Origin: an uncultured virus (IMG/VR IMGVR_UViG_3300025732_000033) | Taxonomy: Duplodnaviria; Heunggongvirae; Uroviricota; Caudoviricetes | Virus record (IMG/VR): IMGVR_UViG_3300025732_000033 | DNA length: 64,000 nt | Direction: 5' to 3' (one strand) | In this document: positions 15,101 to 53,361 of the stretch, one piece after another | Numbering within the stretch: position 1 is the stretch's first letter | Layout: each line of letters opens with the position of its first letter | The notes under the pieces: model-generated | Seen by the model: the letters and a program-made list of their open reading frames with translations, nothing else | What the model was told of the DNA's origin: nothing | Database searches by the model: none | Translations under genes and position numbers: made by a program

Positions 15101-15146
15101 AAATCCGGCGATGGGCACGGGATCTTCAAGTCGTGCAACGCCATAG
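12114..15146 (+). CDS. Large baseplate hub protein (gp27/gpD-like position)
   Basis: Between gp53 and gp5; FYNGIYTITGFKHVI....YSEFKL hub-type motif. Confidence 0.55.
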   Translation: MSKIFVPNVIISTKYDHFLPFISSEKSKSFSFENIKEDENTLVISPANNRYLNSFEYGIGMPEQKTAKLVLKLIDTDNYIQSKFLSNSVITDMLAHQLEESIRKKEYFGNDPDYYNDRINTDLKIYFAFGIGNDLNNWAGPYIATLFNSTLDISKGVREVTLEFFPTTSYLFRKRLDGDKHDPQPYEQFNAGGANIKTIGIYHFDVGKVKNGEEITSIASDIIKNVYSNYLKQICKTNNIIFLFPSLESTEGGNISDYFHLKAKQWKDSHPFKNTFRWASTLRFDMFAKVMRELGIKIKEDNSEENKATREYVVETLKNPKIGFTDIKNEQLQSEQTKDGNGVAIVDCQSSDEGNNANAANKDDTNIPNWWRPLQTFEEGLQKIIPGLAGSITCFQENDLQWISLWNKQGLIPNANEPCTIIGVDQMIYDHLYQNQGGQTVETKDKYKSKYKFNSTDKKIEQVLTSDAYKQAAIKLNYKNKNNSSFNEKLITDELSFSEQSNEYNIMANAIELTKKTDIPLFTYNLFNSNVLDVNVEINQNYFNAMNFAVREDRHKKFGHIILEKNNQIKDIIDPDGQVSLALQEVDKRMGPGSKEKLDTREIELIKDDKLPDPQLIKLKPYLTKLNEQGITYRQIAYLNVLIDLKNNGKLSKVNPDALVSVAQFLERRNEALTLNSGNFAIPKDRGASKDTVMGEIFDYMYKSFLSIQLRTLPFFHLSGWNLLQRPAIILAKRVNIINPLNSNWSRDNLFEFYNGIYTITGFKHVINTKEAYSEFKLIKNQISLDDSTTLNNKSYNLNEQQIKDFEENGNTRKVISDRLKGKLGIKSPDELALENEQKKKTSDRPKSKSSKTPTFGKPSGYDRLSEGDKKLWDSLSAEEQDEIISQTPYLTYDSFYAYRNAKIKKSNEDNDKIEKNPARIDRPLGYDKLTEINKQGWDFINPDHKQRILSEKHRSTFDGNINGNYFRFIYDGKTKSLYNSEVDIPQPPPPSPPPPNPAMGTGSSSRATP

Positions 15147-27069: not shown

Positions 27070-30000
27070 ATGGCATTTTCAAAAGCAGATCTTTACACAA
27101 CTAGTGGTGATGTAACTTTATATCATTGTTGGACTGAGAATGTTACCAAATATGGATCAGATACTTTCTATAATTGGGAACAAGACAATATGCCCATCCA
27201 TGATTTGGAAGAAAGAACGTTCTATTTATGGGAACAGTTAGGATATCCAACGTCTTCAATTCCAGGTGTAGCATTAGTAGTTTCCGCTGATGCTCCAGAT
27301 TCTGCTTGTAACAGTAATATATTTAAGACTGTTAGTGCTGCTGTAGCTGCATTACCTCAAATAATTAATTACCCAATTATAATGGAAGTTGCCAACTTCG
27401 GGGAATTAGGTGAACTTAGATTAACCAATCATAAGTTTGGACCAAGAGGTTCATTAGAAATTATTAATAGAAATTTTGCTAAAACTTTACCAATAACTAC
27501 AGAATATATAAATATTGGATATACTTCATCAATATTTGATACTGGAACTACTTTAAATTTAAATTTACAAAAATATACATCAAGTATATCATACAATGTC
27601 GAATTACAAGCTGCTGAATTATTACAATTTGCACCTTTAAAACATTTTACGGATTCATCAGCAGTTGCTATAAAAACTCCTGTATTTAGTTCAATTTATG
27701 ATTCTAGATTATCTGGAGTTGGTGGTTTAAATTCAAGACTAAATGGTATAATAAAAAATAATACTTCATTCTCTTTAAATAAATCTACTTTATTTATAGG
27801 TGATGATACATCTCCAAATCCTTTTACTGTAGGATCTTCAGCTACTTTAAATTTTAGAGCTTATGAATATAAAAATAATAGTTTTGATGAAGTAGGAATT
27901 AAAGATGTTAGCACATTAGATCCATTTAATAATAATGAATATAAATATTATGCACAAACATGGTATAATTTAGATACTGGTGATTTAAAAGCAGTAGCTA
28001 ACGGATTATTTTATGGTAATAAATTATCTAAAATAATTGTTGTAAATTGTGATGGTCCAATTTATATAAGAAATTTCTTTGTTGATGGATCAGCAATTTA
28101 TAGAACCGACAATCAATATGGAGTAGAAATAAGTAATTGTCCAAATATATATTTAGAAAGTATTGTATCTACTAGATTTAGAAAGTCTGGATTCTTATTT
28201 AATAATTCAAATGTCACGTTACTTCGTGGATGTGTAGGGACAAGAAATTATGGATTTACCCCATCAAACAAAAGAATTACTTCTGATTATACTACCAGAA
28301 TAAAAGATATTTCTTTTGATACTATTCAAGACTATTTATTAGATGATGATGCTGCTGGACTTATTGCAAATAATTCAGTTATAAATGTAAGTTCTACTTC
28401 TGCGATGGAGTTTGCAAATGTTCCAAAAATACCTTTTGGAGAATCTCTCAATATAGCTGGATCATCTCTACCTCATACTTATTATATTTATGAATTTAGT
28501 AAAAATCCAAACGGAATTATATTAAATAATTCGACATTTAAAGGTGGGTTCCCAGAAGTCGCAGGGACTGGTGGTGATTCTAGATTTAATGCTATAAATA
28601 TATCAATTGAAAATAACGTTGGTTGTGGTCTTAAACTTAAGAATTCAGAATTTACTTTTGATGGAAGATTACTAACTACTGAAAATTTATATGGAATTGT
28701 ATGTGAATCATCCATCCTAGAAGTTGACAAACTTCTTGTTGGTTTGAATCAAAAAAGTGGAATTGAATTAATTAATTCTGTTATGAAATATAACAGAAAT
28801 AGATTTAAACCAAGTAATGCAACTGAAGCAATAGTTCAATTTTTATTCTCTGGTAATGGACAACATTTAAATCTTTTAAATTCTAAAATATTACCTTATG
28901 AATGTTCTGCCATGGATGTAAAATATGGTAGAATGAGTTTTAAAAATCCTCTTGGTGTTTATCAAACAATAGGTGGAGTGACAAAAAATGGAATATTACC
29001 TTCAGTTAGCTTAAAAAATAATTCAGAAGCTATTTTAGTTCATCCAAAATTTGAGAGATCGGATGGTCAAGTCATAGATGGGCAAGCTTGTAGAGGATCT
29101 GAATTAGCTGTTACAAATGGGTCTATAGCAGTTTTAAAAGGTTCAAAAGAATATGCAACAAAAATTGTAGGTCCAGTAAGTTATGATCTTCAGAAGAAAT
29201 TAGCGGCAGTCTACGCTGGAGCAAACTCAGTAGTTGAAATTAACGGCCCAACCGCAATAGCACAATTTGGTGTTGATATATTAGGTGAAGATAATTCTGT
29301 AATTAATATTGGACCACATAGAGATAGAACTAATGGCGCAATTGACGTAAGTTCATTTTCATTAATTGATCCTGCAAATCATACCACAGTAGAATTACAC
29401 AGCACTAGGTCTTGTATTGTTGTTAATAAATTATCAACTTTAAATATAAGAGATTTAGGATCTTATAGATTAAATTGGAATAGGACAAATTTAGGTGCTA
29501 GTGCATATTCAAGCGGAGTTGATTATAGAATTGAAAGCCCCTACCTTGGAATTGAACAATATGTTAGCGGTGGATTTATTCAGTTCTACCCAAATCCAAA
29601 TGATTCATATGATTATACATATGATGAAGGTAAAGATGATATCACTGGTGCAGATGGTAGTAGATTACCTTATGAAAACTTTGCAAATGGAACTACATCC
29701 CAACCAAGATATATGCTGTTTAATCCAGTTAATAAAGTTCCTTTAGAATTTTCTGCAGTTACGAATGGCGGTATGTGTGTAAGAGCAGTTAATAATAGCT
29801 TGGTTAATTTATTAAATGTTAATTTTCCTTGTGGTTGGTGGAACCCTTCATCAGTTTTTTATGACACAAGTGCTCAAGGGGAAAACAAATATTGCAGTAG
29901 ATTATATATATGGAATATTGCAGATAATTCTCAAATAAAAGCATCCTTATTATCTGTCAGTGGATTATTTCCTGCAAACTCAGGATATATTGGACCTAGT

Positions 30001-30594
30001 GGTAACTGGGGTAGTGGAACTAACTCATTAATTGTAGCTTCCGGCTTACCTGCAACGACACCAGATACAAGTTCAATATCAATATTAGATTACTTTGGTA
30101 GAACTTATTCTAATCCATTCGGTAAATCAGGATCAGCCGAAAACTTCGGAGTATTTAGATTATATTTCTCTGTTAATCCAGTAGTTAATGTTTTAACAGA
30201 TACCAATTCAGATACTTTTGGAGCAATTAATCAAATATATTCTCAAGGATATCAACCTTCTAGCAACTTAGTTGGTTTAGGGACAGTAAGTTCCTTATAC
30301 CCTATGTTATTACAAAGAAATTCATCTAATTCAATAGTTCCCTCTGGATATTATTATTGTTCTGCTATGATAGATAATCCTTCTAGAGTAAGAGCTTACT
30401 TAGATGAATCTGCTGCAGAAACTTTTGCTAATGCTAAACATTGTTCTGTAGGTAAATCTGGGTTACCTAAATTAGTTTCAATTTATTTCCCTTATAATGA
30501 TACTAAATTAGGAGACTCTGCTAAAAATTCTGTAAAAGTTTTTGGTAATGGTATAAAATCATTAAATGTTTTTGATATAGAGAGAGATAACTAA
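27070..30594 (+). CDS. Tail spike-like protein with parallel beta-helix repeats
   Basis: YNWEQDN.P..DLEERT head, FKTVSAAVAALP, repeated G-I-x-L-x-N-S turns. Confidence 0.65.
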   Translation: MAFSKADLYTTSGDVTLYHCWTENVTKYGSDTFYNWEQDNMPIHDLEERTFYLWEQLGYPTSSIPGVALVVSADAPDSACNSNIFKTVSAAVAALPQIINYPIIMEVANFGELGELRLTNHKFGPRGSLEIINRNFAKTLPITTEYINIGYTSSIFDTGTTLNLNLQKYTSSISYNVELQAAELLQFAPLKHFTDSSAVAIKTPVFSSIYDSRLSGVGGLNSRLNGIIKNNTSFSLNKSTLFIGDDTSPNPFTVGSSATLNFRAYEYKNNSFDEVGIKDVSTLDPFNNNEYKYYAQTWYNLDTGDLKAVANGLFYGNKLSKIIVVNCDGPIYIRNFFVDGSAIYRTDNQYGVEISNCPNIYLESIVSTRFRKSGFLFNNSNVTLLRGCVGTRNYGFTPSNKRITSDYTTRIKDISFDTIQDYLLDDDAAGLIANNSVINVSSTSAMEFANVPKIPFGESLNIAGSSLPHTYYIYEFSKNPNGIILNNSTFKGGFPEVAGTGGDSRFNAINISIENNVGCGLKLKNSEFTFDGRLLTTENLYGIVCESSILEVDKLLVGLNQKSGIELINSVMKYNRNRFKPSNATEAIVQFLFSGNGQHLNLLNSKILPYECSAMDVKYGRMSFKNPLGVYQTIGGVTKNGILPSVSLKNNSEAILVHPKFERSDGQVIDGQACRGSELAVTNGSIAVLKGSKEYATKIVGPVSYDLQKKLAAVYAGANSVVEINGPTAIAQFGVDILGEDNSVINIGPHRDRTNGAIDVSSFSLIDPANHTTVELHSTRSCIVVNKLSTLNIRDLGSYRLNWNRTNLGASAYSSGVDYRIESPYLGIEQYVSGGFIQFYPNPNDSYDYTYDEGKDDITGADGSRLPYENFANGTTSQPRYMLFNPVNKVPLEFSAVTNGGMCVRAVNNSLVNLLNVNFPCGWWNPSSVFYDTSAQGENKYCSRLYIWNIADNSQIKASLLSVSGLFPANSGYIGPSGNWGSGTNSLIVASGLPATTPDTSSISILDYFGRTYSNPFGKSGSAENFGVFRLYFSVNPVVNVLTDTNSDTFGAINQIYSQGYQPSSNLVGLGTVSSLYPMLLQRNSSNSIVPSGYYYCSAMIDNPSRVRAYLDESAAETFANAKHCSVGKSGLPKLVSIYFPYNDTKLGDSAKNSVKVFGNGIKSLNVFDIERDN

Positions 30595-32969
30595 TGGTAA
30601 CAATTAAATATAAAGACAGTAATTATAGATTTACTGACCCTATAAGATATTTTAAAGCTAATGACCCAATATATTTTGAAGTTGAAAATATACCTTTAAA
30701 ACAATTACAGGAAAATGATCTTTGGCTAAAAGATCAAATTACTAATGGTTTAAAAATTGATGAAATAGATAGATCAGGTTTTTCTGAATTAAAACCTTAT
30801 TCAACAGGAACTGATAATGTTGTAAAAGTAAAACCAGGAAGATTTATTGCAAGAATAAATGATGCCTATAGCATAACACCTTTACAAAAAATAAGAAATT
30901 TATTAGGTCAAAATATAAATGAATACAATACTTGGGCAGCAGAAGGAAGTAATGGAGCTTATTTAGATGTAGTTCTTGAAAAATTTAAAAATCAGTTATC
31001 GAACTTAGATTTGAATGGATTATCAGAGAGAGTTTTAGCTTGGCCAGCATACAGCCCAGGAAGAGCCAGCCAATATTTATCTGAAATATATAATCTAGGT
31101 TTTGGTACAACTTTTCCAACTGGTGTTTCTCCATTACCTGTAGCTCAAGGAGTTCTTTTTCCTGGAGATACTGAAGTAACTGAATATATTATAAAACAAT
31201 ATGAAGATGGTGATGCTCTTACTGGTTTTGCCTCATTAGGCAATGCTGAGACAGCATTTATAAAACGATGGAGAGGTGTTGCTAGAACTGCTGTCGTAGA
31301 TTTATCAGAAGAAACTTCTTTAGAAATACCTCCATTTAATGCTGAAGATTTTTTCTATATTGACGAAAACGGTGTTAAGCAATTAATATCAGGAGCTAAT
31401 CAAAGAATAGATTTATTATTTATTTATTCAAAACCAGTTGATGCTAGCTCAACAACTATAGCAAAGTTCACTGAGTTCTCTCAACCAACTACAATAACTA
31501 AACCAGAGCTTGGTATAGTTTATGGTGCTGGGTTAGGTGTAGACTTTAGAAAAACTTCTAATGATATTAGATCTGCAATTAAGCAAGTTGATTTAATAGA
31601 TCAAGTCGGAACTTCAAAAATGCTTGCATTTGTTGGAGATTCTTTATCAGTTAATAATGGATTCTCGTTATCTAACGTTCATGGATCATTCCCAGCACCA
31701 GATGATTTAATGAACATAGCTCCAATGTTAGATATTAATTTAAGGGATAATCATTTTGCATTAGTAGGACAAACAGTATTACCGTTAGCTTATATTGTAG
31801 TTAAGGCTGGTGCTGCTGTTAATGAAAATAATCAAAGTTTGTCTGTAATTTCAAACAATGATATTATTGATATAAGACCTTTCTTTAGAACTACTGAACT
31901 TACTTATAATGAGAGGGCTGGGTTGGCTGCTGCTATCCCTGCGCCCTCTTTAGCCAATCCAGTTGTTACTCAAGCTGAATTAGACTTTGAAGTAAAGAGA
32001 AGTTATCAAGCCATTCAAGCTAGATTAAATTCTATTCAAAATACAGTTACTGTTCAAACTACGCCTAGAGTTGTTGGAGCGGGATACGTAAAAGGTGGAT
32101 ATAACTTTGGTGTAGAGGGAACATTAGCAAGATATATTGAACTTAGACTCACTCAAGGAAATTTAACAAAAGAAAGATTAAAGTCTGAAGTAATATCAAG
32201 ATTTGGATTACCATTAGGAATTGAAATCCCAGATTTCCCAGATTGGGATATTGGTGCTTGGGTTGTAGCTAACAATTTAAGTGAGCAAGGATCATTTCCA
32301 AATGATTACATGAATGTTTATCAATCTGGAGGATATGGAAATGTGAGACCTACTTATGCTAATACTGCAGTAGAGTTTGCTCCTTATCAAAATAAGGAAT
32401 TAACAACTAGATTAGAGAGACTAGGAACTGACAATATAACTGGTAAAACCGGACACACTTGTGTGTTCTTTGTTAAAAAGAAAATATACTTTAATAGAGG
32501 ATCTATTCCTTGGATGAACGACTACCATGTTGATGTCCAGCTATGGAATTGTGCTCCCCTAGGATGCAGGGCGCAAGCGGAAAGATCCATAACTACGGCA
32601 GGAACTAATTCAGTTTGGGTAGAAAAATCATATAACTATTTTACCATTTACGTAGCTTGGGTTGCCAGTGATTATAATTTCGGAAATGGAAAAGAAGAAA
32701 TCATAGAGAATATAAATAATTCTACTTCAATTAATTTACCAAACTCAAGAAGAAATGGTAGTAATTATGCCGGGTTCTTAGTTATGACTGATGGAATAAC
32801 TAATGCTGGTGGAAGAGGGGATTATAATCAAACTGTATTTAATGGCGAAGGTAGCGCAGGAATTGCTATTTATCCTTCAGTGACATTTAAAATAACTGGG
32901 TATCCAGTAAATTATAATGGATTAAATTTAAATCTTAACGCCGATAATCCAACTTTAACACTAGCTTAG
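30594..32969 (+). CDS. Tail/baseplate-associated virion protein
   Basis: IRYFKANDP.Y.EV.N.PL.QL.END..L start; I.DIRPFF motif; TAATG-coupled to the upstream gene. Confidence 0.55.
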   Translation: MVTIKYKDSNYRFTDPIRYFKANDPIYFEVENIPLKQLQENDLWLKDQITNGLKIDEIDRSGFSELKPYSTGTDNVVKVKPGRFIARINDAYSITPLQKIRNLLGQNINEYNTWAAEGSNGAYLDVVLEKFKNQLSNLDLNGLSERVLAWPAYSPGRASQYLSEIYNLGFGTTFPTGVSPLPVAQGVLFPGDTEVTEYIIKQYEDGDALTGFASLGNAETAFIKRWRGVARTAVVDLSEETSLEIPPFNAEDFFYIDENGVKQLISGANQRIDLLFIYSKPVDASSTTIAKFTEFSQPTTITKPELGIVYGAGLGVDFRKTSNDIRSAIKQVDLIDQVGTSKMLAFVGDSLSVNNGFSLSNVHGSFPAPDDLMNIAPMLDINLRDNHFALVGQTVLPLAYIVVKAGAAVNENNQSLSVISNNDIIDIRPFFRTTELTYNERAGLAAAIPAPSLANPVVTQAELDFEVKRSYQAIQARLNSIQNTVTVQTTPRVVGAGYVKGGYNFGVEGTLARYIELRLTQGNLTKERLKSEVISRFGLPLGIEIPDFPDWDIGAWVVANNLSEQGSFPNDYMNVYQSGGYGNVRPTYANTAVEFAPYQNKELTTRLERLGTDNITGKTGHTCVFFVKKKIYFNRGSIPWMNDYHVDVQLWNCAPLGCRAQAERSITTAGTNSVWVEKSYNYFTIYVAWVASDYNFGNGKEEIIENINNSTSINLPNSRRNGSNYAGFLVMTDGITNAGGRGDYNQTVFNGEGSAGIAIYPSVTFKITGYPVNYNGLNLNLNADNPTLTLA

Positions 32970-32970
32970 T

Positions 32971-35900
32971 ATGCCTAGAATTAGTAATAGGTTTAATTGT
33001 GGAGAGTTTCTCCCTGGTCGAAGACCTGTTACCGGGGGCACTGTAAATACAGTTCCTCCAATCTATATTCCACCTCCAAAAAAAATACCAAGGCCACCAT
33101 TTCCACCAGCACCAGATGATCCTAGGGGTCCTGGGTCAGAGAGGAGATGGGCATGTAGATTTAGAGGAACTATAACTTGCCCCCCACCAAACTTAGACGT
33201 AATTTCAAGTCGTGTATTTAGATGTATTGAATGTAATACTACTTTGGCAGGATCTTGGCCACCTGAGTGTATTTATCATAGAAAAGAACTTTGTCAAATC
33301 CACTGTCTGAATATAGATTATCCATGCCCAATACCCCAAGTTCAAGATGGATTTAAGTGTGTAGAAGAAAAGATATTATGTCCTTATGGGACCGCACCTA
33401 TTCCAGGTGTATCAGAAATTGATCCAACTACTGGATTACCAATAAAAGAAATAATAAGAAGATGTGAACCCTGTAGAATAATGCCATCAGATCCTGATTG
33501 TATTTATCAAAAAATAGATGATTGTCAGGAAGTATGTCTAACATCTCAATACGAGGATTGTGTTAGAACGCCAAGGGGTCCTACAACAGGTGGCGGTATA
33601 GCCACTGCTGTAATTGAAGATGGGTGGAGATGTAATACAACAGACTTATTTTGTCAAAATGGAACTCGTTATGGATTTATCCAGGAATGTGTTCAAGATT
33701 GTAATTTAAGTATTAGTCGTCCGGGAGATGGATGCTTTCAATTTAAACGAGACTGCGATAATACATGCCCTTATGTTGTTCAAGAAGATCCAGAACTTTG
33801 TGATCCAGTCACTCCAACAGGTGGTACTGGTGTAGAACAAAGATTTGCATGTGCTCAAAAAGTTGTTTCTTGTCCTGAAGGTCAAAATGGTAATATTTAT
33901 TTGCATGGATGTATTGAGTGTGTAAATAATAATGGAACTTGGGTATTAAGTGATCCAACTTGGAGCAGTCAAGCAGGGTGCGTTTATACTAGTAGGCAAA
34001 ACTGCGCAGATCAATGCCCATCATATGAATCTAATGAATGCTATGGACAAAGCACCGGGGGGACTACGCCCGTAGGCAATCCAGTGACGGAAGAAAATAA
34101 TACTCCAGTAAGTGAACAAACTGGATTATCAAATGTATTTCCTGGAACTGAAATTCCCCCAGGAGGTGGTGGAGGCGGTGGCGGTAGATTTAACCCTGAA
34201 CAATTAAGGATGTCTGGGAATAATCAAAGATTTATTTCAAATTCTGTTATAGTAACTACTGACTCTCTTATAAGTAATTTAATAAGTAATATACCAACTA
34301 AACAAGTGGAAGAAATAGTATTAATAGATGACACTATAGTTGATAACTCAGTTGATGAAGGTCCAACAACTTACAGAGAACAGGGTTTGTATGATAGAAT
34401 ATATAACTTCTTTACTTACCCAGTAAACACTAAAGTTGAATTAGTTCAAAATGATCAATATTTAAATGTATTTAATACTGTAATAACAAAAGAAGTAAAA
34501 CATTTTATAGATAGACAAGATAATTCTCCTTTGCCTTGGAGTGATGTTGCAATATCAAATCTAACTCAAGATAAAATTGCTATTAGTTTAAATACAGATT
34601 TGTTAAAAGCTTTTAATAACATAAATGATTTTGGTGGACAAGCTGTCCCACTCAGTAATTTTTTAAATATTATTCAATCACTTTTATTGTCTGGCAGGAT
34701 ATCAGAATTTGATTCTAACTATTATTTATCTTTAGAGCTAAGACAAGCCGAGGATAATCCTATTAGGTATTCTCAAAATAGTGATTATGACGAAGTTACC
34801 AGGGCTGCATTAGGTTTAATATCAAATGGTGCATCTTCATCTGATTATTCCTCATATATGAATCAGTATGAAAAGAATCAAATAAAAAGACAAAGAAGAC
34901 TAAACACTGATATTAATGTTAAACTACAAACTGTAGATTTATCTGGAGAGTATTCAACGCTACCTTTAACTGATCATGGAGTCCCAACTATGTCTTTAGA
35001 TGGTGATTTAACTTTAAGCACCACTTTTGACGTATTGGATCTTGGGGATGGTGCAGGATATTATATTTCAGCTATAGATTTTTCTGGAACTGAGTCCCCT
35101 GTTATTAGCCAAAATGATTCTTCAGCATCATTTTTTATACCACCTGTATTAAGAGATAATGTATTAAGAATATTAAATTTTGATAATGCTGCCACTTTAA
35201 CAGTATCCTCAAATTTATCAGGGCATGAATTATCTACTGATTATAACCCTTCAGCAGATGTAAGTGTTATGTATTTTGCATTAGACTTAGATACTTTAGA
35301 AGATAATACAACTAATAATTCTCTTGTAAATTTAACTACAGCAACATTTAGATTGCTATCCAAGGATGAAGCAATCCTACATGCTAGAAACTATAGTTTA
35401 AATACTTCTAAATTAAATATAAATTATGATGATCCAATTATTCATTATTTAAGAGATACTAGTTCTATAGAGTATAAACAATATGATGTTAATTTTAAGA
35501 ACTATCAAATAAATAGAACAGATGATCAATCTATATTAACAAGAAATATTCCTTTTGGATTAATAATAACTCCAGGACTAGGATCTTCCCATAATCCCTA
35601 TCATGCTTACTCTGAATTAATTAATTATAATTCTTCAAATATTGTTAGATTATTAAAAATGGTCCCTAATATTGATGTAAGCAGAAAAGACATATTAACC
35701 CCACCACTAGATGAAAAATTAATTTATGATGAACTTGGAACTTATTATTATGGATTATATGAAAAGTATAATGATATAGATCCACAAGGTATAATTTATG
35801 AGTATAATCCAAGTTCTAATTTGTTTTCAAAATCTTATTACTATTCCAATTCATATTCAAATATTCAACCACCCTCATCAACTAGAACTGGGTCGGCAGA

Positions 35901-36186
35901 ATCAGTGATAATAAATTTAATAGATAAATTAAAAACTTTATATAACCCAGAAGAATTAACTTGGTGGGATGTTTATAGAAGACTTAATTCTAATCAAATT
36001 GGAAAGTTTATATTATCAAATCAATCCCAGTTTACTAATGATTTAGCAAATGGATTTAAAGATATACCAATTAGAGATGTATTATCTAGTCCTAATATTA
36101 CTGAAACAGGTATATTGGTAGATCCAGTAGAAAATGATATAATATATATAAAGGAACAAGATAGAGAAAATGCCCCTTATTATTAA
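32971..36186 (+). CDS. Large protein with four N-terminal 8-Cys repeats and Pro/Gly linkers
   Basis: 1071 aa; 32 Cys in four repeats within about aa 60-357; in the structural operon before PAAR. Confidence 0.7.
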   Translation: MPRISNRFNCGEFLPGRRPVTGGTVNTVPPIYIPPPKKIPRPPFPPAPDDPRGPGSERRWACRFRGTITCPPPNLDVISSRVFRCIECNTTLAGSWPPECIYHRKELCQIHCLNIDYPCPIPQVQDGFKCVEEKILCPYGTAPIPGVSEIDPTTGLPIKEIIRRCEPCRIMPSDPDCIYQKIDDCQEVCLTSQYEDCVRTPRGPTTGGGIATAVIEDGWRCNTTDLFCQNGTRYGFIQECVQDCNLSISRPGDGCFQFKRDCDNTCPYVVQEDPELCDPVTPTGGTGVEQRFACAQKVVSCPEGQNGNIYLHGCIECVNNNGTWVLSDPTWSSQAGCVYTSRQNCADQCPSYESNECYGQSTGGTTPVGNPVTEENNTPVSEQTGLSNVFPGTEIPPGGGGGGGGRFNPEQLRMSGNNQRFISNSVIVTTDSLISNLISNIPTKQVEEIVLIDDTIVDNSVDEGPTTYREQGLYDRIYNFFTYPVNTKVELVQNDQYLNVFNTVITKEVKHFIDRQDNSPLPWSDVAISNLTQDKIAISLNTDLLKAFNNINDFGGQAVPLSNFLNIIQSLLLSGRISEFDSNYYLSLELRQAEDNPIRYSQNSDYDEVTRAALGLISNGASSSDYSSYMNQYEKNQIKRQRRLNTDINVKLQTVDLSGEYSTLPLTDHGVPTMSLDGDLTLSTTFDVLDLGDGAGYYISAIDFSGTESPVISQNDSSASFFIPPVLRDNVLRILNFDNAATLTVSSNLSGHELSTDYNPSADVSVMYFALDLDTLEDNTTNNSLVNLTTATFRLLSKDEAILHARNYSLNTSKLNINYDDPIIHYLRDTSSIEYKQYDVNFKNYQINRTDDQSILTRNIPFGLIITPGLGSSHNPYHAYSELINYNSSNIVRLLKMVPNIDVSRKDILTPPLDEKLIYDELGTYYYGLYEKYNDIDPQGIIYEYNPSSNLFSKSYYYSNSYSNIQPPSSTRTGSAESVIINLIDKLKTLYNPEELTWWDVYRRLNSNQIGKFILSNQSQFTNDLANGFKDIPIRDVLSSPNITETGILVDPVENDIIYIKEQDRENAPYY

Positions 36187-37030: not shown

Positions 37031-37519
37031 ATGAGTAACCAAGAATTTCCTAATATTTCAGTTGGTGACTTTGCCATGGATATCTTAAAAGACATGGCAA
37101 AGGACCCTGTTAAATCATTAAAACCTGCTTTAAAAGAATCAACTATTCAATCATCTAATGTTCCTGATATTAGTAACATTAAAGTAAATGAAGATTTTGT
37201 TTCTTTGGTTACCGGAGAAAATAAAAAAGTTTTAATTAAAGAAAGCCCAAGCCCAATTATAAGAGAATCAAAAGAACAAAAATTAGAAAATTTAGTAAAT
37301 AAACTTTCTAGTTTGTTAGTTGAGGCTAGGCAATTAGTTGAGGAAATTTCTTCCGGGGCTACCACTGTAGGTAATATTGGGGTTAACACAGCTAGTAAGA
37401 AGTCTAAAAGTAAAGCTAATCCTTGGGCTATTTGCCATTCGTCTGTTGGACCTAAGAAGAATGATAAGTTTGAACGCTGCGTAAAGAAAATAAAAAGTAA
37501 ATACGGTATAGATAAATGA
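37031..37519 (+). CDS. Putative prohead core/internal protein
   Basis: Multiple (L/I)xE sites; C-terminal NPWAICHSS...KFERCV..IK motif. Confidence 0.5.
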   Translation: MSNQEFPNISVGDFAMDILKDMAKDPVKSLKPALKESTIQSSNVPDISNIKVNEDFVSLVTGENKKVLIKESPSPIIRESKEQKLENLVNKLSSLLVEARQLVEEISSGATTVGNIGVNTASKKSKSKANPWAICHSSVGPKKNDKFERCVKKIKSKYGIDK

Positions 37520-37923
37520 AAGATTTTTTAACTTTACTAAATGAAACTAGATTTGAGAAGGCTAAAGGATCTAAAGAGGGTAGGCAAGCTATTAATGATA
37601 GAGGTAAAAGATCTCACACCCAGCCCTCAAAATCAAAAGTAAGAGTTTACGGATCTATTACCGATGCCCTTAAAAAAGGTTACATGGGGCAAATTTTCTC
37701 AACTAAAGAATCAGATCGTCTTTATGTTATAACTAAACAAAAATGGGGTAAAGACGATGAACAAATTGTTAACGGTAGATCCGCCAAAGGATTCTCACCG
37801 GGTAATATACCATCAAAATTTAGTGATGTCAAAAAATATTCTATAAGAACCATGGTTCGTCATAGTGGATCTTCTGATAAAAAAAATAAAGACAAGAAAC
37901 CTTGGAGCGATAAGAAGAAATAA
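37516..37923 (+). CDS. Basic putative prohead core/internal protein
   Basis: MKDF..LLNE start, Lys-rich, directly upstream of gp21. Confidence 0.5.
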   Translation: MKDFLTLLNETRFEKAKGSKEGRQAINDRGKRSHTQPSKSKVRVYGSITDALKKGYMGQIFSTKESDRLYVITKQKWGKDDEQIVNGRSAKGFSPGNIPSKFSDVKKYSIRTMVRHSGSSDKKNKDKKPWSDKKK

Positions 37924-46346: not shown

Positions 46347-48788
46347 ATGAATTACTTTTATAAATTATTAGAAAGCTACAGTCAGTTAAAAAATAGAAGT
46401 CTCAGATTGTTAGAGCGCGATAGATCGGGCGGGAAAAGAAGATTATCCCAGCCCCCATCTCCTCAAGCTGTGTATGCTGCTAAAAAATATATTGCGAATG
46501 CAAAAACATCAAATGGCCGACAAATCCCAGTAACTCAATTACCTCCTGCGTATGTAACTATAAATGGTAAGGGCGTTGTAGTTTTTACGGGTTTTCCAGG
46601 ACCAAGATATGGAAGAGAATATGGAATAAAAACTGCAGCAGATGAAGATGAGTTTGCAAGATTATTAGATCAAGCTGCACAAGGAGGACAATCATCTCAA
46701 GGAGCTACAGGTGGTGAACAAAATCAAGATGCTAATGGACAACTAAAATTAGATCCAAGTAATCCAAAACAAGATAAAGTAGAAGAACAACCAAAAAAAA
46801 CATATGAATTTTTAGACTCCCATGAGTTTTTATCAGAAATAGAATACAATAAAACTGTTGAAAAAATATGTAAAATAGATAAAACAAAATGCAAAATTCT
46901 TAGGGGTGCCCATGCAAGACTTCTCAATACAGGAAACTCAGGAGACTTAGCTAGAACCATAGCTCAAAGTAGTTATGTTATTGAGTCTTGCGATGAAAAT
47001 GAATCCATATGTGTTCCAACTAGAAATGATCAAGATATAACCCACATCAAAAGAAATGTATCTAAAATTTTTCAAGAAATATTTAAAATACTATCTAAAG
47101 AAAAATTAACTTTGGAAGATGTTCAATATCTTAAACAATCAGTAAGCATAAGTAAAGTAGGTCAAATAATAATTAGAGATCCCATAACTGGGCAAGGAAT
47201 GCTTTTCCATGAAGACAGTCAATACATTACTTCATTAATAAATGGAATGATTTCATTACATGAAGATCCTGGAACTGAAAAACAATTAGAACTAGAAACA
47301 GATCATGGAAACTTCTTAAGGAATGGAAATGGTATTGGAGGTAGGGGAGCAACAATTAGAGGTTTCTTTTTTGAAGACTTGAGAAACGCTGTAATTTTAC
47401 ATGCTAGATGCAGAAATTTACAACAAGATAGTCCAGAATCAAATAGATGCAATAAAAAAATATCAGACCTTTTTGAAAGATGGATACAAAATCAAGATAA
47501 ATTAATGGAAGCATTTCAAGGTTTGATAGATCAATATAACACAGAGGGCGCTGTGTCTATGGATTTAGATGATAACTTAAGCATGTTTTTTATTCAAACA
47601 GTAGTAAATGCTTTTGGAAATGGGAAAATGGCTAATGCTCAACAAGCTATGGAAAGATTCTCAAGAGTAATGAGTAGAATGGCATATATGGGAGTAGATA
47701 TTAGACGGCCCATGCATGTTATGAAATCTGCGCATACTGTAGGATTAGGTAGAAAAGCAGATATGCTTGAAGTGTATTCTACAAAAGAGTCTGCCGTAAA
47801 AGCTTTACTAAGCATGGGATTTGACCAAGCCACTGCAGAAAAAATGATTATAGAGAGAGATATTTCTGAAATAGAATGTGATGGGACAGATTGTAAAAAT
47901 TTATCCAAAGTATATTTAATAGGTGATAGTTTAAAATTTTCTAATGAAGCTGAATCAATTGACCTTGGTCAGGCAAGCCAATCAAATATTACTGCAGTAA
48001 TTGACGGAACCTATTGTGGCAAAGTAGTTAAAGATTCTCCTAGATGCCGCGCTGATGTTGAAAGACAAAAAAAAATGATGAAAGAATCTGGGGTTACCGA
48101 ACAAGATTTAAATTTAGTTAAAGAAGAATTATCAAGATTTCAATCTGAATTAGATATTATGAAAAAAATTCCAAAGGAAGTAAAATATTTTACTCAGAAA
48201 GGTGGAGTTAGAGTTTTTCAAACAGCAAAAATGAGAGAAGAATTTTTAAAGTCTACTTTAGATTATTTTAGAAAAAATGATATATTTAAAGGGTTAACTC
48301 AAAATGCAATAATAGAAATAGAAAAAATGATTAAATTTTCTGATGAGCAAGACTGGGAAAAAGTATGTGCAACAATTGCTTCTGTAATACAGAAAAGAAG
48401 AATTCAACAGTTAGTTGATGCTAAAACTGAAGATGGATCTCCAGATTTAAAACAAAGAAGAAAAGGTCTAGGATTTGTGGTAGCTTTGGCTTTATTTGCT
48501 GGCGGTGCCGCTGACAACTCAATGCTTACAGTAATAGACGCTAAAAATAGAACTATGTATGTTGGAGAACAAAATAAATATCTTCAATCAGTAAGAGATT
48601 CTATATCAAATCAAGATAATGTAAAGAATGCTCAAATAGAAGTTCGTGATGGTAAGTTTATTTTAAATGGAGTAGAAGTAACTTTCAATGGAAAAAGAGC
48701 AGACTGCCATATACCTAAATCTATTTTACAGCAACACAATTCTAAAATACTTTCTTTGAAAGAAAGACAAGGGTTAGAAGTAGCTTAA
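46347..48788 (+). CDS. Large hypothetical protein, possibly a capsid-packaged nuclease-fold protein
   Basis: N-terminal LLE...LLE; RGFFFE / KADML / GDSLK motifs. Confidence 0.45.
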   Translation: MNYFYKLLESYSQLKNRSLRLLERDRSGGKRRLSQPPSPQAVYAAKKYIANAKTSNGRQIPVTQLPPAYVTINGKGVVVFTGFPGPRYGREYGIKTAADEDEFARLLDQAAQGGQSSQGATGGEQNQDANGQLKLDPSNPKQDKVEEQPKKTYEFLDSHEFLSEIEYNKTVEKICKIDKTKCKILRGAHARLLNTGNSGDLARTIAQSSYVIESCDENESICVPTRNDQDITHIKRNVSKIFQEIFKILSKEKLTLEDVQYLKQSVSISKVGQIIIRDPITGQGMLFHEDSQYITSLINGMISLHEDPGTEKQLELETDHGNFLRNGNGIGGRGATIRGFFFEDLRNAVILHARCRNLQQDSPESNRCNKKISDLFERWIQNQDKLMEAFQGLIDQYNTEGAVSMDLDDNLSMFFIQTVVNAFGNGKMANAQQAMERFSRVMSRMAYMGVDIRRPMHVMKSAHTVGLGRKADMLEVYSTKESAVKALLSMGFDQATAEKMIIERDISEIECDGTDCKNLSKVYLIGDSLKFSNEAESIDLGQASQSNITAVIDGTYCGKVVKDSPRCRADVERQKKMMKESGVTEQDLNLVKEELSRFQSELDIMKKIPKEVKYFTQKGGVRVFQTAKMREEFLKSTLDYFRKNDIFKGLTQNAIIEIEKMIKFSDEQDWEKVCATIASVIQKRRIQQLVDAKTEDGSPDLKQRRKGLGFVVALALFAGGAADNSMLTVIDAKNRTMYVGEQNKYLQSVRDSISNQDNVKNAQIEVRDGKFILNGVEVTFNGKRADCHIPKSILQQHNSKILSLKERQGLEVA

Positions 48789-50029: not shown

Positions 50030-50364
50030 ACAGGAAATCCAAATTTAAACTCAAAATAAGCTTCCAACTTGAGTTTATGTCTTTTAACTTTAGTAGCTAC
50101 CAGTTTTAAGTTATTTATAATTACTGTCGTAAAATAATTGAACGCAGAGCCGTTCTCCGGTTTAAAATTACGCAGTGTCCTTAGGACAAGGAGGAAGCAT
50201 TCTTGTTTTGCATCCTCCTTGTCCACTTTAAAATGGAAAGCGTCTATAATATTGCTGATGAGGGCGTCGAAGCAATACATCAGCTCATCCTGAAATTCGT
50301 AATTACCAGAACAGTGTAGTTTAATTAGTTGTTCAAAACGCTTGTTATTAAGATACTCCGACAC
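50002..50364 (-). CDS. gp55: Late sigma factor, T4 gp55-like
   Basis: YLNNKRF, ED..QEC......RNFKPE..SAFNYFTTVI.N; GTG start. Confidence 0.8.
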   Translation of the reverse strand: MSEYLNNKRFEQLIKLHCSGNYEFQDELMYCFDALISNIIDAFHFKVDKEDAKQECFLLVLRTLRNFKPENGSAFNYFTTVIINNLKLVATKVKRHKLKLEAYFEFKFGFPVQPPDVSSC

Positions 50365-50378
50365 AAATTAATAATAGT

Positions 50379-51404
50379 ATGAGAATACTACCAGATCCTT
50401 TTAAATATGAATATATTGATTGTAAAGGTTGCACTCAACTTGAACGTAATCAAGTGTGCCACTCGATTATGGATCATTGGGAGATGGGTTTTAATAAGCT
50501 CTGCGAGATTTTATTTGTGTCCGAGTCTTTTAAGCTTGAGCATGGTGAAATAACACCCTTCTTAACGAAGGAGCAGGATTTAATTGAATCTATCTTAGAG
50601 TCCGCAGGATTTGGGCATCTTATCCCACACGTAGAATACACTGCGTCAGTTAAGTGCATCAACGTTAAGGATAAGGATATGACCAAGGAAGATAAAGATA
50701 TCTGCCGTAACCATATTCTGGCGACTGTACGAGCCTGCAAGCCTAAGGTTATCTTTGTCTGTGGCAACCTACCCTTGGTGATGCTAACTAAGAAAAGCGG
50801 CATCATGGGCAAGCGAGGGAAGGCGTTTGAGTATGAGGGCATCCCTGTGGTGGCACTGTATCACCCAGTCCAGGTGCTAATGGAGCCTCAGAACCAATAC
50901 CTATTCAAACTGGATATCCAGAACGGTATTGAGACATACTATAACAAGCGTGGGACTGATTCAGAGTTCTCTTGGGAGATGCTAGATACGATTGAGAAGC
51001 TCAATAAGCTAGCGGAATATAAGAACTGCGATGTGGCGGTAGATATTGAAACCACCGGGCTAGACTTCCTCAAAGACGAGATACAGACGGTAGCCCTGAG
51101 CTTTAATCATAAGGGGAAGCTAGTTACTTTCACAATTCCAATGTATCACAAGGAATTCACTCACCCGGACGGATGGATTTCTACCGTAAATAAACTTTTT
51201 AGTGAAATATTTACCAACGACTTAACACGGAAGATATTTCACAAGGCACAATTTGATACAAAGTTCTTGGCTAGGCAGGGCTTGTCTGATATAAGGAACA
51301 TCTACGATACCAAGCTCATGCAGCACATGGTTGACGAAAATCTTCCTAAGAGCCTCAAGGATTTGGTATCCTACTACTTTCCAAATGAGCAGGGCGTAAT
51401 CTAA
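50379..51404 (+). CDS. polA: DNA polymerase A part 1: family-4 UDG-like Fe-S domain plus ExoI/ExoII of the 3'-5' exonuclease
   Basis: CKGC, VKC, ICR, LYHP; VDIETTGL, FHKAQFD, YDTKLM.H.VDEN..SLKDL. Confidence 0.85.
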   Translation: MRILPDPFKYEYIDCKGCTQLERNQVCHSIMDHWEMGFNKLCEILFVSESFKLEHGEITPFLTKEQDLIESILESAGFGHLIPHVEYTASVKCINVKDKDMTKEDKDICRNHILATVRACKPKVIFVCGNLPLVMLTKKSGIMGKRGKAFEYEGIPVVALYHPVQVLMEPQNQYLFKLDIQNGIETYYNKRGTDSEFSWEMLDTIEKLNKLAEYKNCDVAVDIETTGLDFLKDEIQTVALSFNHKGKLVTFTIPMYHKEFTHPDGWISTVNKLFSEIFTNDLTRKIFHKAQFDTKFLARQGLSDIRNIYDTKLMQHMVDENLPKSLKDLVSYYFPNEQGVI

Positions 51405-51913
51405 TGTTAGGGCAAGACGGCAAGAAAACAGACTGGAAGAACATGCCCCTGCCAACGATGGCTAGAGGTAATGCTCTTGATGCCTACTTCACCATGAAGG
51501 TATTCCAGAAGCTAGAGAAAAGAATCTCTGAGCTTAAGATGGATAACCTCTATGATAAGCTCATGGTTCCAGCGGTCGAGTTCTTCAAGACCATGGAGCT
51601 TGACGGTCTTTTGATATCGGGTAGTAAAGTAAACGAACTGGGTGTCTTGCTGAAGGATGATATCCTTAATAATGAGGATAGATTGTATTCCTTCAAGGAA
51701 GTAGACAAGACTCTAGAGCTTACCTCCACTGATGACCTTACTCGTATACTCTATTCTTGCGATAAGAAGAAGAATATTGTAGAAGGTGGGTTCAACCTGT
51801 ATCCCCCGATCACATCGGAGAAAACTGGGGCTCCAAGCACGAGCGCGGAAGCATTAGATATCTTACTAGAACAACTTGAAGAAGAAATCAATCGCAGAGG
51901 TCTAAATGAATAG
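51404..51913 (+). CDS. polA: DNA polymerase A part 2: ExoIII, linker and thumb
   Basis: NALDA.FT, ME.DGL.I, L.S..DL..ILY, KTGAPST..EAL; TAATG coupling. Confidence 0.85.
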   Translation: MLGQDGKKTDWKNMPLPTMARGNALDAYFTMKVFQKLEKRISELKMDNLYDKLMVPAVEFFKTMELDGLLISGSKVNELGVLLKDDILNNEDRLYSFKEVDKTLELTSTDDLTRILYSCDKKKNIVEGGFNLYPPITSEKTGAPSTSAEALDILLEQLEEEINRRGLNE

Positions 51914-52994
51914 GTTTGAGAAGCTTGAACTTGAGAAGCAGATATCACAGTCTGCTATTAGATCTCTAAGCGACGCCAACATCGTGAACGCTAGAGATTT
52001 CATCAAGGGTCTACTGGATTACAGAAGATCCAAGAAGCTCTACGATACCTATATCTCAGGTGTTAAGGAGGCAATGCAATATAATGGATCAGACCGGATT
52101 TACGTGGAGTATCGTCTCGATGGGACTGTCACTGGACGACTCAGCAACGCTGGGTATGAAGCTGGCGACAATCGAATGGGTATATCATTTCATACTCTGC
52201 CCCGAGAGACGAAGTTCAATATTCGTGAATATGTTGTGGCTCCCAAGGGCTACAAGTTTATAACCGCAGATATGAAGAGCATGGAACTCCGAGTTCTAGC
52301 TCACTTAGCCAAGGAGAAGAACATGGCTAAGGCATTCAATGATCGCATGGACCTACATACGTATTCTGCTTCTATGACGTTCGGTAAGCCTATGGAAAAG
52401 GTGACCAAGGAGGAACGTCAGATTGCTAAGGAAGTTAGCTTCTTAACGGTCTATGGTGGAACGGAGAAGACGCTAGCTATGAAACGTGGTATTAGCTTCA
52501 AGAAAGCGAAGGGTATTATAGATGGCTGGATGGCTGCATTCCCAGGTGTTCCCAGATACATGGAACATGTTCAGAACTTTATTAATAGTAACAAGTATGC
52601 CTATACTATCTTTGGGCGTCGTCGGAATCTACCGAATGCTGCGTCCGAAGCTAAGTATATTCGGCAAGAAGCTTTTAGGCAGGGACTGAACTTTACGGTC
52701 CAGTCATCAGCCAGTGATACTCTAGTCTGCTGTATCCTAGGGCTGAATCAGGATCTAAAGCGGAAGAAAATGGGTGCCAAGATAATCGCAACGGTCCACG
52801 ACTCCATAGAGTTGATTGCACCAATCGACCAAGTAGACGAGACCATCGCATTACTCTACCACCATATGGTTAACTACCCTTATATTAAGGAGAACTTTAA
52901 GTTTGAGTTCTCAGTGCCGATGGAAGTGGAAGTGGTAGTTGGTGATTCTTTTGGCTCAGGCCAAGAGTATCATCTCAGCAATCCCACTTCCTAA
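51906..52994 (+). CDS. polA: DNA polymerase A part 3: palm/fingers
   Basis: LLDYR...KL..TYI, TVTGRLS, motif A ADMKSMELRVLA, motif B RQIAKEVSFLTVYG, NFTVQSSASD, motif C VHDSI. Confidence 0.92.
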   Translation: MNRFEKLELEKQISQSAIRSLSDANIVNARDFIKGLLDYRRSKKLYDTYISGVKEAMQYNGSDRIYVEYRLDGTVTGRLSNAGYEAGDNRMGISFHTLPRETKFNIREYVVAPKGYKFITADMKSMELRVLAHLAKEKNMAKAFNDRMDLHTYSASMTFGKPMEKVTKEERQIAKEVSFLTVYGGTEKTLAMKRGISFKKAKGIIDGWMAAFPGVPRYMEHVQNFINSNKYAYTIFGRRRNLPNAASEAKYIRQEAFRQGLNFTVQSSASDTLVCCILGLNQDLKRKKMGAKIIATVHDSIELIAPIDQVDETIALLYHHMVNYPYIKENFKFEFSVPMEVEVVVGDSFGSGQEYHLSNPTS

Positions 52995-53361
52995 GAGACT
53001 TATTAATACGTGAATCAGGATCACTAGCAGTCTTCTTAGAAGTTAGTTTGCTTTTCATGCCGGACATTCTAGCACAGAATGACTTTCTTCTCGATGCTGA
53101 CTTCTTAGACTTCTTGGCTTGTTCAGAGGATACTGGGGGTTTGAGATTATGCCCTTGAGCTTTGGCTGATGCTCTACCTTTAGCATTTAATCCACCTTCT
53201 GGATTCTTACCTTCTGATCTTTGCCAAGCAGGAGAGGATTCTTTCATACAAGATCCTTTAGAATATGGAGTCTTACCTGGAGTTGGCTTATAACCTTTCC
53301 AACAACGATTTTTTTTAGCTTCGGTTATGAGTTCAATTACTCTTTCGTAAATCTTATTCAT
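52975..53361 (-). CDS. Basic conserved phage protein, probable internal head protein
   Basis: LITE, CWKGYK, AWQRSEGKNPEGGLNAKGR, RRKSFCARM, SRINKSLRKWDC; a motif set common in T4-like phages. Confidence 0.7.
   Translation of the reverse strand: MNKIYERVIELITEAKKNRCWKGYKPTPGKTPYSKGSCMKESSPAWQRSEGKNPEGGLNAKGRASAKAQGHNLKPPVSSEQAKKSKKSASRRKSFCARMSGMKSKLTSKKTASDPDSRINKSLRKWDC

What the first reader, a model, noticed from the sequence alone, without database searches (positions are those of the whole stretch)
50379..52994. Family A DNA polymerase naturally split into three translationally coupled genes
UDG-like+ExoI/II (341 aa), ExoIII+thumb (169 aa) and palm/fingers (362 aa) are separate ORFs with no intron or intein between them. 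Both junctions look evolved rather than broken. Junction 1 is TAATG; the new frame is closed by TGA 51386 and shows no slippery site. At junction 2, ATG 51906 is directly preceded by an in-frame TAA and an SD-like AGAGG. Both sides of junction 2 have extra helical residues (EQLEEEINRRGLNE; MNRFEKLELEKQISQSAIR) that could form an interface. The proofreading site would be assembled from two polypeptides. A heterotrimeric PolA would be unusual and would be missed or called a pseudogene by pipelines.
Basis: partly seen in the sequence, partly recalled or inferred. Interest (0 to 1): 0.82.

Follow-up and report, generated by a model that had tools for sequence, protein, structure and literature searches.

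The report
Phage DNA polymerase in three genes
An uncultured aquatic phage, like a whole clade of its relatives, encodes its only DNA polymerase as three separate genes cut inside the proofreading domain and inside the thumb, so the enzyme and its proofreading site must be put together from separate proteins.

Summary
Three adjacent ORFs, A 50379-51404, B 51404-51913 and C 51906-52994, match consecutive parts of one UDG-fused family A DNA polymerase.

It is neither an error nor decay.
- Every related viral contig with the pieces in view keeps both cuts: A|B in 73 of 73, B|C in 76 of 76.
- Contigs of four public runs show no indel at either junction.
- All three parts are under strong purifying selection, dN/dS 0-0.10 in unsaturated pairs.

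In 21 of 73 relatives unrelated genes lie between A and B. One gene family there is on the opposite strand and is itself under selection. This excludes frameshifting or splicing at that cut.

Split forms make one clade, 25 C-only and 9 B+C-fused rows. The likely history is whole, then A|BC, then A|B|C.

Exo I and II lie on A. The Exo III aspartate lies on B, aligned to Klenow D501.

Assembly into one enzyme is inferred, not shown.

Two-gene exo|pol PolA splits are published. I found no three-gene split with cuts inside domains. Verdict: new variant of a known kind.

The parts
50379..51404 (+). [quoted passage not shown]
   Evidence: It stands alone as a 276-361 aa protein in 74 of 74 clusters found.
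51386..51388 (+). TGA that closes the B reading frame 15 nt upstream of the B start codon
51400..51406 (+). Junction 1: the stop of A and the start of B share one base (TAATG)
   Evidence: The same or a similar overlap occurs in 50 of 73 related loci.
51404..51913 (+). Gene B (169 aa): Exo III helix (invariant D26, aligned to Klenow D501), the first helices of the polymerase domain and thumb, and a helical tail
   Evidence: It stands alone as a 151-180 aa protein in 24 of 24 clusters found.
51895..51913 (+). Junction 2: AGAGG, TAA in the C frame, the C start ATG 51906 and the B stop TAG 51911-51913 (8-nt overlap)
   Evidence: ATG and GAGG are kept in the 12 close loci, while the B stop moves in L004, L005, L009 and L010.
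51906..52994 (+). Gene C (362 aa): helical head, rest of the thumb, palm and fingers with motifs A, B and C (D122, R171/K175, H298/D299)

Best explanation
The replicative family A DNA polymerase of this uncultured myovirus is an inherited three-gene fission of a UDG-fused PolA.

- A carries the UDG-like Fe-S-type domain and exonuclease motifs I and II.
- B carries exonuclease motif III and the first part of the thumb.
- C carries the rest of the thumb, the palm and the fingers.

The three are translated as separate polypeptides. In this genome they are probably coupled through the 1-nt and 8-nt stop/start overlaps. They then associate non-covalently to rebuild the usual PolA fold. The proofreading site is completed in trans (A plus B) and the thumb is completed in trans (B plus C), the latter helped by extra helices at the B tail and the C head.

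Shown here: separate genes, conserved breakpoints, purifying selection on each piece, and the positions of the catalytic residues. Inferred: physical assembly, activity, and translational coupling.
For: **Colinearity.** The pieces match one polymerase profile in order.

**Shared cuts.**
- All 12 loci of the first scan keep the three pieces.
- In the second scan, 307 stretches encoded a relative and 80 loci were kept. A|B is separate in 73 of 73 loci and B|C in 76 of 76 where both pieces are in view.

**Genes inside the cuts.**
- 21 of 73 loci carry 151-2406 nt with ORFs between A and B, and 2 more have a 42-nt spacer.
- A 7-member ORF family lies there on the opposite strand. Its dN/dS is 0.08-0.22 in 15 of 15 pairs among the 6 members compared.
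- L011, 97-99% identical to the window, has a 271-aa ORF exactly at junction 1.
- An independent run's contig has about 805 extra bases at the same place.
- L052 has a 208-aa ORF between B and C.

**Selection (NG86 dN/dS).**
- L004-L009: A 0.031, B 0.066, C 0.039.
- Window-L011: A 0.038, B 0.006.
- Window-L002: B 0.014, C 0.054.
- L006-L008: A 0.10, B 0, C 0.031.

**Assemblies.** No indel appears at either junction in contigs of 4 of 4 runs laid. Records bridge both junctions.

**Catalytic residues.**
- D222, E224 and D293 are invariant in 33 of 33 A sequences.
- D26 is invariant in 21 of 21 B sequences and aligns to Klenow D501.
- The motif A, B and C residues are invariant in 24 of 24 C sequences.

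**Only polymerase.**
- The window holds no other polymerase gene.
- Family B polymerase was found in 0 of 5 related records, one of them 111 kb and estimated 99% complete.
- PF00476 gave exactly one match in each of 3 of 3 records.

**Clade.** All 34 rows of a 100-supported clade are split forms, against 97 long forms on the other side.
Against: - No experiment or expression data bears on assembly or activity.
- The residue aligned to the Exo III tyrosine (Klenow Y497) is glycine in 21 of 21 B sequences. Proofreading chemistry may therefore differ or be weakened.
- One relative, L065, has B itself further broken by a frame change. Some lineages may be decaying or may be cut a fourth time.
- B alone gives a poor model (pLDDT 57.7). 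This fits a piece that needs partners, but could also reflect the shallow alignment.
- Two C-only rows (P0090, P0125) sit among the long forms. They may be fragments or independent splits.
- The tree is a FastTree with a midpoint root. The direction (fission, not fusion) rests on the long forms being the outgroup.
- Inserted ORFs other than the 7-member family are mechanical ORF calls.
Confidence: 0.85

Rival explanations
1. Recoding: a programmed -1 shift at junction 1 and a +1 shift at junction 2 (or ribosomal bypass) make one chain of about 870 aa. The ORF boundaries would then be apparent only.
For: A and C are in the same frame and B is one frame off. A GAGG lies just upstream of the B stop, a layout loosely like the prfB +1 site (recalled, not from a call).
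Against: No slippery heptamer lies in the 15-nt window between TGA 51386 and the A stop.

At junction 1, relatives have a 42-nt spacer with a stop, inserted genes on either strand in 21 of 73 loci, and a 271-aa ORF in a 97-99% identical relative.

At junction 2 the overlap varies from -32 to -1 nt among 74 of 76 loci. The B stop moves while the C ATG is kept. L052 has a gene between B and C.
Confidence: 0.03
2. Sub-functionalisation without assembly. A works on its own as a repair protein (UDG-like plus partial exonuclease). B and C, or C alone, form a proofreading-free polymerase. The pieces no longer make one enzyme.
For: Genes, even opposite-strand genes, can separate A from B, so co-expression is not enforced. 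The UDG-like domain of A keeps four invariant cysteines. C alone folds confidently in prediction (pLDDT 84.3).
Against: A lacks Exo III. The matching aspartate is invariant on B, in 21 of 21 sequences, which is hard to explain unless A and B still complete one site. A, B and C remain adjacent and in order in all loci examined. B alone is poorly predicted. The breakpoints lie inside folded domains, not between them.
Confidence: 0.1
3. Assembly or sequencing artefact, or a recently inactivated pseudogene.
For: Frame changes at single positions are what indel errors produce.
Against: The same junctions occur in 12 of 12 and 76 of 76 independent viral contigs. Contigs of 4 of 4 public runs from 4 studies show no indel there. 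dN/dS is 0-0.10 on all three parts. Stand-alone A, B and C proteins are found down to 31%, 49% and about 36% identity.
Confidence: 0.01
4. Protein trans-splicing: split inteins at the junctions ligate the pieces after translation.
For: Fractured genes with split inteins are known in environmental phage-like DNA (PMC2677866; search listing and abstract only).
Against: Junction 1 has no extra residues. Junction 2 has only about 14 plus 28 extra residues, predicted as plain helices. No intein or Hint family appears in Pfam for A, B or C. No homing endonuclease family appears in the 23 inserted ORFs scanned.
Confidence: 0.01

Closest known systems
Two-gene exo|pol split PolA of S-SBP1-like (clade B, S-TIP37-like) T7-type cyanophages. 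Sources: Czernecki et al. 2023, PMC10201439 (section 32 read whole, other passages); PMC12695635 (passages).
   Same: A family A phage polymerase naturally divided by gene fission into adjacent, overlapping genes, with no intron or intein. The pieces are presumed to reassemble. The split is inherited by a clade.
   Different: That case has one cut, placed between the exonuclease and polymerase domains, in a T7-like podovirus enzyme without UDG. Here there are two cuts, both inside folded units: between Exo II and Exo III, and inside the thumb. The enzyme is a UDG-fused PolA of myoviruses, and the cuts often hold unrelated genes.
Single-chain UDG-PolAs: N4-like cluster 17 and the SPO1 type (PMC10201439 passages; PMC13697223 passages).
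   Same: The same domain order: family-4 UDG-like, then 3'-5' exonuclease, then polymerase. The nearest full-length relatives (750-980 aa, about 31-37% identical over C) carry an A-like N-terminus.
   Different: Those are one polypeptide. Here the same architecture is spread over three genes. The UDG motif aligned to GEAPG of a solved family-4 UDG reads S-E/D-S-F-K.
[quoted passage not shown]
   Same: An aquatic phage polymerase in pieces, with an unrelated ORF of unknown function in the cut and no recognisable homing endonuclease.
   Different: Those are two pieces in podovirus-like phages, and the authors left open whether an intron is involved. Here there are three pieces, and opposite-strand genes in the cut exclude splicing.
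Split gene 43 (family B polymerase) of some T4-like phages and the Aeh1 nrdA-a/mobE/nrdA-b 'genes in pieces'. Recalled from memory, not seen in any call.
   Same: Essential replication enzymes that work as non-covalent assemblies after a gene was cut.
   Different: Those are different enzyme families, and the cuts are associated with homing endonuclease genes. None was found here.

Membership tests
Family A DNA polymerase (PF00476) | Polymerase domain with motifs A (D..E), B (R...K....F/Y...YG) and C (HD) | tested here: met
   C matches PF00476 at E 1.4e-73, profile positions 58-380 of 381. D122, E127, R171, K175, H298 and D299 are invariant in 24 of 24 sequences. C aligns to Bst Pol I large fragment residues 262-573.
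Family A DNA polymerase (PF00476) | Single polypeptide holding the exonuclease and polymerase domains | tested here: not met
   There are three ORFs in different frames. The cuts are shared by all related loci examined.
DEDD 3'-5' exonuclease (PF01612, DNA_pol_A_exo1) | Four acidic residues in motifs Exo I (DxE), Exo II (D) and Exo III (D) | tested here: met
   D222, E224 and D293 on A are invariant in 33 of 33 sequences. D26 on B is invariant in 21 of 21 and aligns to Klenow D501. The four residues are met only across two chains.
DEDD 3'-5' exonuclease (PF01612, DNA_pol_A_exo1) | Exo III tyrosine (Yx3D, DEDDy type) | tested here: not met
   The residue aligned to Klenow Y497 is G22, invariant in 21 of 21 B sequences.
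Family 4 uracil-DNA glycosylase (PF03167) | UDG fold and four Fe-S cluster cysteines | tested here: met
   Pfam UDG scores 36.5 bits against a cut-off of 24.3. The profile matches solved family-4 UDG 4zbx at E 1.7e-15. C15, C18, C93 and C109 are invariant in 33 of 33 sequences. That these four are the cluster ligands is recalled, not tested.
Family 4 uracil-DNA glycosylase (PF03167) | Catalytic motif A (GE(A/G)PG) | tested here: not met
   In the alignment to 4zbx, the chain's VGEAPG lines up with the profile's vsdsfk, FVSESFK in the window. The role of this motif is recalled.
S-SBP1-like split T7-type PolA | [quoted passage not shown] | tested here: not met
   There are two cuts: inside the exo domain and inside the polymerase domain at Pfam position about 58. 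A UDG-like N-terminus is present. Phylogenetic placement relative to T7-like PolAs was not tested.
Fractured genes (split intein plus homing endonuclease) | Intein halves at the break and an endonuclease gene in the gap | tested here: not met
   A, B and C have no Hint or intein family. None of 23 inserted ORFs has an endonuclease family in Pfam, and none of the 22 of them scanned in PHROGs has one.

The most novel reading that the evidence does not exclude
The fission is used, not merely tolerated. Proofreading needs A plus B and polymerisation needs B plus C. The phage could therefore run its replicase with or without proofreading (or the UDG-like Fe-S module) by changing subunit supply. This would be an adjustable-fidelity, exchangeable-subunit family A replicase. 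The two cuts would also double as landing sites for accessory genes.
Probability: 0.12. Interest if true: 0.85.

Novelty: new variant of a known kind. Interest (0 to 1): 0.6.

Why it matters
Family A polymerases are the textbook single-chain polymerase. The one published natural fission that I could find cuts between domains.

Here a large, widespread clade of aquatic phages shows that the fold tolerates two cuts inside domains. These give a proofreading site completed in trans and a thumb made of two chains.

The case offers natural split points for engineering split polymerases. It gives a test case for how essential enzymes survive gene fission and moron insertion. It also warns annotation pipelines, which name the pieces 'uracil-DNA glycosylase' or 'DNA polymerase I-like protein', and polA-based virome surveys, which would see only piece C.

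Tried and rejected
**Complex prediction.** The job used A+B+C with B as partner. Its verdict was 'no answer'. Scores were 0.84, 0.84 and 0.84. Partner-replaced controls scored 0.00 and 0.00, but the control with chain 3 replaced scored 0.78. This is not usable for or against binding.

**Expression.** No RNA holder was listed. The one 'RNA?' run laid is marked as probably DNA.

**B in longer proteins.** The search for homologous proteins with B against longer proteins found nothing. The tool itself calls this weak, and the B+C fusions were later found by phmmer and blastp.

**Own assembly.** It is not held, so related records were used instead.

**Phage genome collection.** There is no relative above 32% identity for C, and no DNA match over the polymerase itself.

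**The 271-aa ORF inserted in L011.** It has no Pfam or PHROG family.

**Homing endonuclease, intron or intein origin of the cuts.** No such family was found in the 23 inserted ORFs.

**Earlier-findings index.** Look-ups by place and by sequence returned nothing.

**Literature.** Five searches and passages of PMC10201439, PMC10580990, PMC12695635, PMC13697223, PMC11348598, PMC6302109 and PMC12656738 gave no three-gene PolA. No supplements were opened, so a mention there would have been missed.

**Fold search for B.** Not attempted, because the model is of low confidence.
Full report
**Observation.** Three adjacent plus-strand ORFs are present exactly as described: A 50379-51404 (341 aa), B 51404-51913 (169 aa) and C 51906-52994 (362 aa).
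- Junction 1 is TAATG. The B frame is closed 15 nt upstream by TGA 51386-51388.
- At junction 2 the C start ATG 51906 follows an in-frame TAA and an AGAGG. B ends 8 nt later.
- A carries Pfam UDG and DNA_pol_A_exo1. B has no Pfam family. C matches DNA_pol_A from profile position 58 to 380 of 381.
- The pieces match consecutive stretches of PHROG 17: 459-785, 793-912 and 931-1236.

This is one colinear polymerase cut twice, with no room for an intron or an intein.

**Context.** The window is part of a 35% G+C myovirus. It has sheath, tube, baseplate wedge and major head protein genes. Its replication module holds helicase, primase, DnaB, SSB, ribonucleotide reductase, ThyX, SbcCD and a RusA-like resolvase. 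No other polymerase gene is present.
- Family B polymerase was found in 0 of 5 related viral records. One of them is 111 kb and estimated 99% complete.
- PF00476 was found exactly once in each of 3 of 3 records.

The split enzyme is therefore most likely the phage's replicase.

**Not an artefact, not decay.**
- All 12 loci of a first scan keep the three pieces.
- In a profile-based scan, 307 stretches encoded a relative of C and 80 loci were kept (C identity 48-100%; 10 of them are the same contigs as in the first scan).
- A and B lie in separate stop-bounded frames in 73 of 73 loci where both are in view. B and C do so in 76 of 76. The other loci end before the piece.
- Contigs of four public runs from four studies were laid on 50300-53100. 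They show no inserted or deleted letter at either junction. Records bridge junction 1 (X1 record 5; X3 records 25 and 26) and junction 2 (X3 record 29). The only indels are a compensating pair at 52077/52080 in one divergent contig. These are assembled contigs, not raw reads.
- Nei-Gojobori dN/dS for unsaturated pairs:

| Pair | A | B | C |
|---|---|---|---|
| L004-L009 | 0.031 | 0.066 | 0.039 |
| Window-L011 | 0.038 | 0.006 | n/a |
| Window-L002 | n/a | 0.014 | 0.054 |
| L006-L008 | 0.10 | 0 | 0.031 |

- More distant pairs are saturated at synonymous sites, with pN only 0.10-0.21.

**The cuts behave as ordinary intergenic sites.**
- Among the 73 loci, the projected A-B distance is -20 to +2 nt in 50, 42 nt (with a stop) in 2, and 151-2406 nt in 21.
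- The long gaps hold ORFs, often on the opposite strand.
- One 7-member family of 164-189 aa lies on the minus strand. Its members are 72-92% identical. It is under purifying selection in that frame, with dN/dS 0.08-0.22 in 15 of 15 pairs among the 6 members compared. It is a real gene transcribed against A and B.
- L011 is 97-99% identical to the window. It carries a 271-aa ORF of no known family exactly at junction 1, with TAATG on both sides.
- A 7.9-kb contig of an independent run has about 805 extra bases at the same place.
- L052 has a 2OG-Fe(II) oxygenase gene between A and B and a DUF6445 gene between B and C.
- None of the 23 inserted ORFs scanned in Pfam, and none of the 22 of them scanned in PHROGs, matches a homing endonuclease family.
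- At junction 2, 74 of 76 loci overlap by 1-32 nt. In the 12 close loci the C ATG and an upstream GAGG are kept, while the B stop moves.
- In the window itself, 15 of 41 same-strand neighbour pairs overlap, mostly by 1, 4 or 8 nt. Only 17 of 56 genes have an SD-like motif.

The junction geometry is therefore the normal gene packing of this phage.

**Depth and history.**
- A stands alone (276-361 aa) in 74 of 74 clusters found, down to 31% identity. No A+B fusion of about 510 aa was found.
- B stands alone (151-180 aa) in 24 of 24 clusters, down to 49% identity.
- An exhaustive phmmer search with C found, above about 37% identity, stand-alone C proteins plus proteins of 480-563 aa. Full-length proteins of 750-980 aa appear only below that.
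- Seven of the nine 480-563 aa proteins show a B-like N-terminus by blastp, followed by C. Two (P0054, P0068) gave no B match.
- In two of their contigs an A gene lies just upstream. One has the same TAATG junction.
- A FastTree was built of the C region with 133 rows. 18 of 150 representatives were dropped for covering fewer than 290 residues. It puts all 25 C-only and 9 B+C rows nearest the window in one clade with support 100. The other side holds 97 long forms plus 2 C-only rows. The B+C forms are mostly basal.
- The likely order is whole, then A|BC, then A|B|C. Junction 2 changed more than once: the tree needs at least 4 changes of the B+C label.
- The direction rests on the outgroup. The tree is a quick one with a midpoint root.

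**Where the cuts fall.**
- The B profile aligns to Klenow fragment chain residues 157-270. B D26 lies on D501 (Exo III) and B G22 on Y497.
- Exo I (D222, E224) and Exo II (D293) are invariant on A.
- Cut 1 therefore lies in the loop between Exo II and Exo III, inside the proofreading domain.
- The C profile aligns from position 21 to Bst large-fragment residue 262 onward, and B reaches at least residue 241-245 of that chain. Cut 2 therefore lies inside the thumb, ahead of the conserved YR..KL..TY helix.
- Relative to B+C-fused relatives with 8-14-residue linkers, the window has about 14 extra residues at the B tail and 28 at the C head.
- Both extras are predicted helical: B H148-164 at low confidence, and C H3-19 at pLDDT 82-87.
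- C alone models well (pLDDT 84.3). B alone models poorly (57.7).

**Mechanism.**
- Shown: three genes, conserved cuts, selection on each piece, and catalytic residues distributed over A, B and C.
- Inferred: the three chains reassemble into the canonical fold. A plus B complete the exonuclease site. B plus C complete the thumb through the extra helices. In this genome, translation is coupled through the overlaps.
- Open point: the Exo III tyrosine is glycine in all 21 B sequences, so the proofreading chemistry may differ.
- The UDG-like domain keeps four invariant cysteines. It has S-E/D-S-F-K where a solved family-4 UDG has GEAPG. It is probably not a glycosylase. The role of that motif is recalled.

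**Rivals.**
- Recoding is excluded at junction 1 by the inserted and opposite-strand genes. At junction 2 it is made very unlikely by the variable overlap and moving stop.
- Artefact and pseudogene readings are excluded by the loci, the contigs and dN/dS.
- Trans-splicing has no sequence basis.
- Sub-functionalisation without assembly cannot be excluded. It does not explain the invariant Exo III aspartate on B.

**Comparison and novelty.**
- Czernecki et al. 2023 (PMC10201439; section 32 read whole) describe a two-gene exo|pol fission in S-SBP1-like T7-type cyanophages as the first in PolAs. They describe UDG-PolAs (N4, SPO1) only as single chains.
- PMC12695635 (passages) uses that split as a clade marker.
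- PMC10580990 (passages) reports OM43 phage polymerases split in two with a small ORF inserted.
- I found no three-gene PolA, and no cut inside the proofreading domain, in five searches or in the passages read. Supplements were not opened.
- Earlier unchecked notes of this scan list several split phage PolAs. These include a three-ORF UDG-PolA in another genome (e1-6288474) and a two-gene form cut inside the proofreading domain (e1-6064629). The latter resembles the A|BC forms seen here. I did not test those notes.
- Verdict: real, inherited and widespread. It is a new variant of a known kind.

Noticed in passing
window 50379-52994 compared with L002 and L011: Synonymous divergence is discontinuous. 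The window against L011 or L002 has dS of about 0.36-0.44 over A and B but about 0.05 over C. This suggests a recombination breakpoint near junction 2 between otherwise close strains.
   Followed up: partly
window 52975-53361 (-), overlapping the end of C by 20 nt: A convergent 128-aa gene has a C-terminal part about 72-80% identical at DNA level to small genes of many cyanomyoviruses and two pelagiphages. It matches eight PHROGs of unknown function. Contig depth jumps at 53026-53100 (for example 950 against 11 in X3), and many loose ends start there. This fits a short module shared by many phages.
   Followed up: partly
window 50379-50950 (N-terminal domain of A): The UDG-like domain has four invariant cysteines (C15, C18, C93, C109) but S-E/D-S-F-K in place of the GEAPG motif of a solved family-4 UDG. 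It is probably an Fe-S-binding but non-glycosylase module.
   Followed up: partly
L065:4400-6045: In this relative B itself changes frame midway, and 1.6 kb of minus-strand ORFs lies between A and B. This is either a fourth cut, decay, or an assembly error.
   Followed up: partly
L034, L046, L051, L057, L067, L069, L093 (between A and B, minus strand): A conserved 164-189 aa protein has an N-terminal hydrophobic stretch ending in a cysteine (lipoprotein-like) and a second hydrophobic segment. It has no Pfam or PHROG family and is under purifying selection.
   Followed up: partly
L033:3378-3761 (-) and window 37403-37525: The first 42 residues of an ORF inserted between A and B in L033 are 54% identical to a stretch of the window near 37403-37525.
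   Followed up: no
window 46347-48788 (+): An 813-aa ORF directly after the tail tube gene has no PHROG match. Several other large structural-region ORFs (12114-15146, 16297-19083, 21284-25423, 27070-36186) also have none.
   Followed up: no
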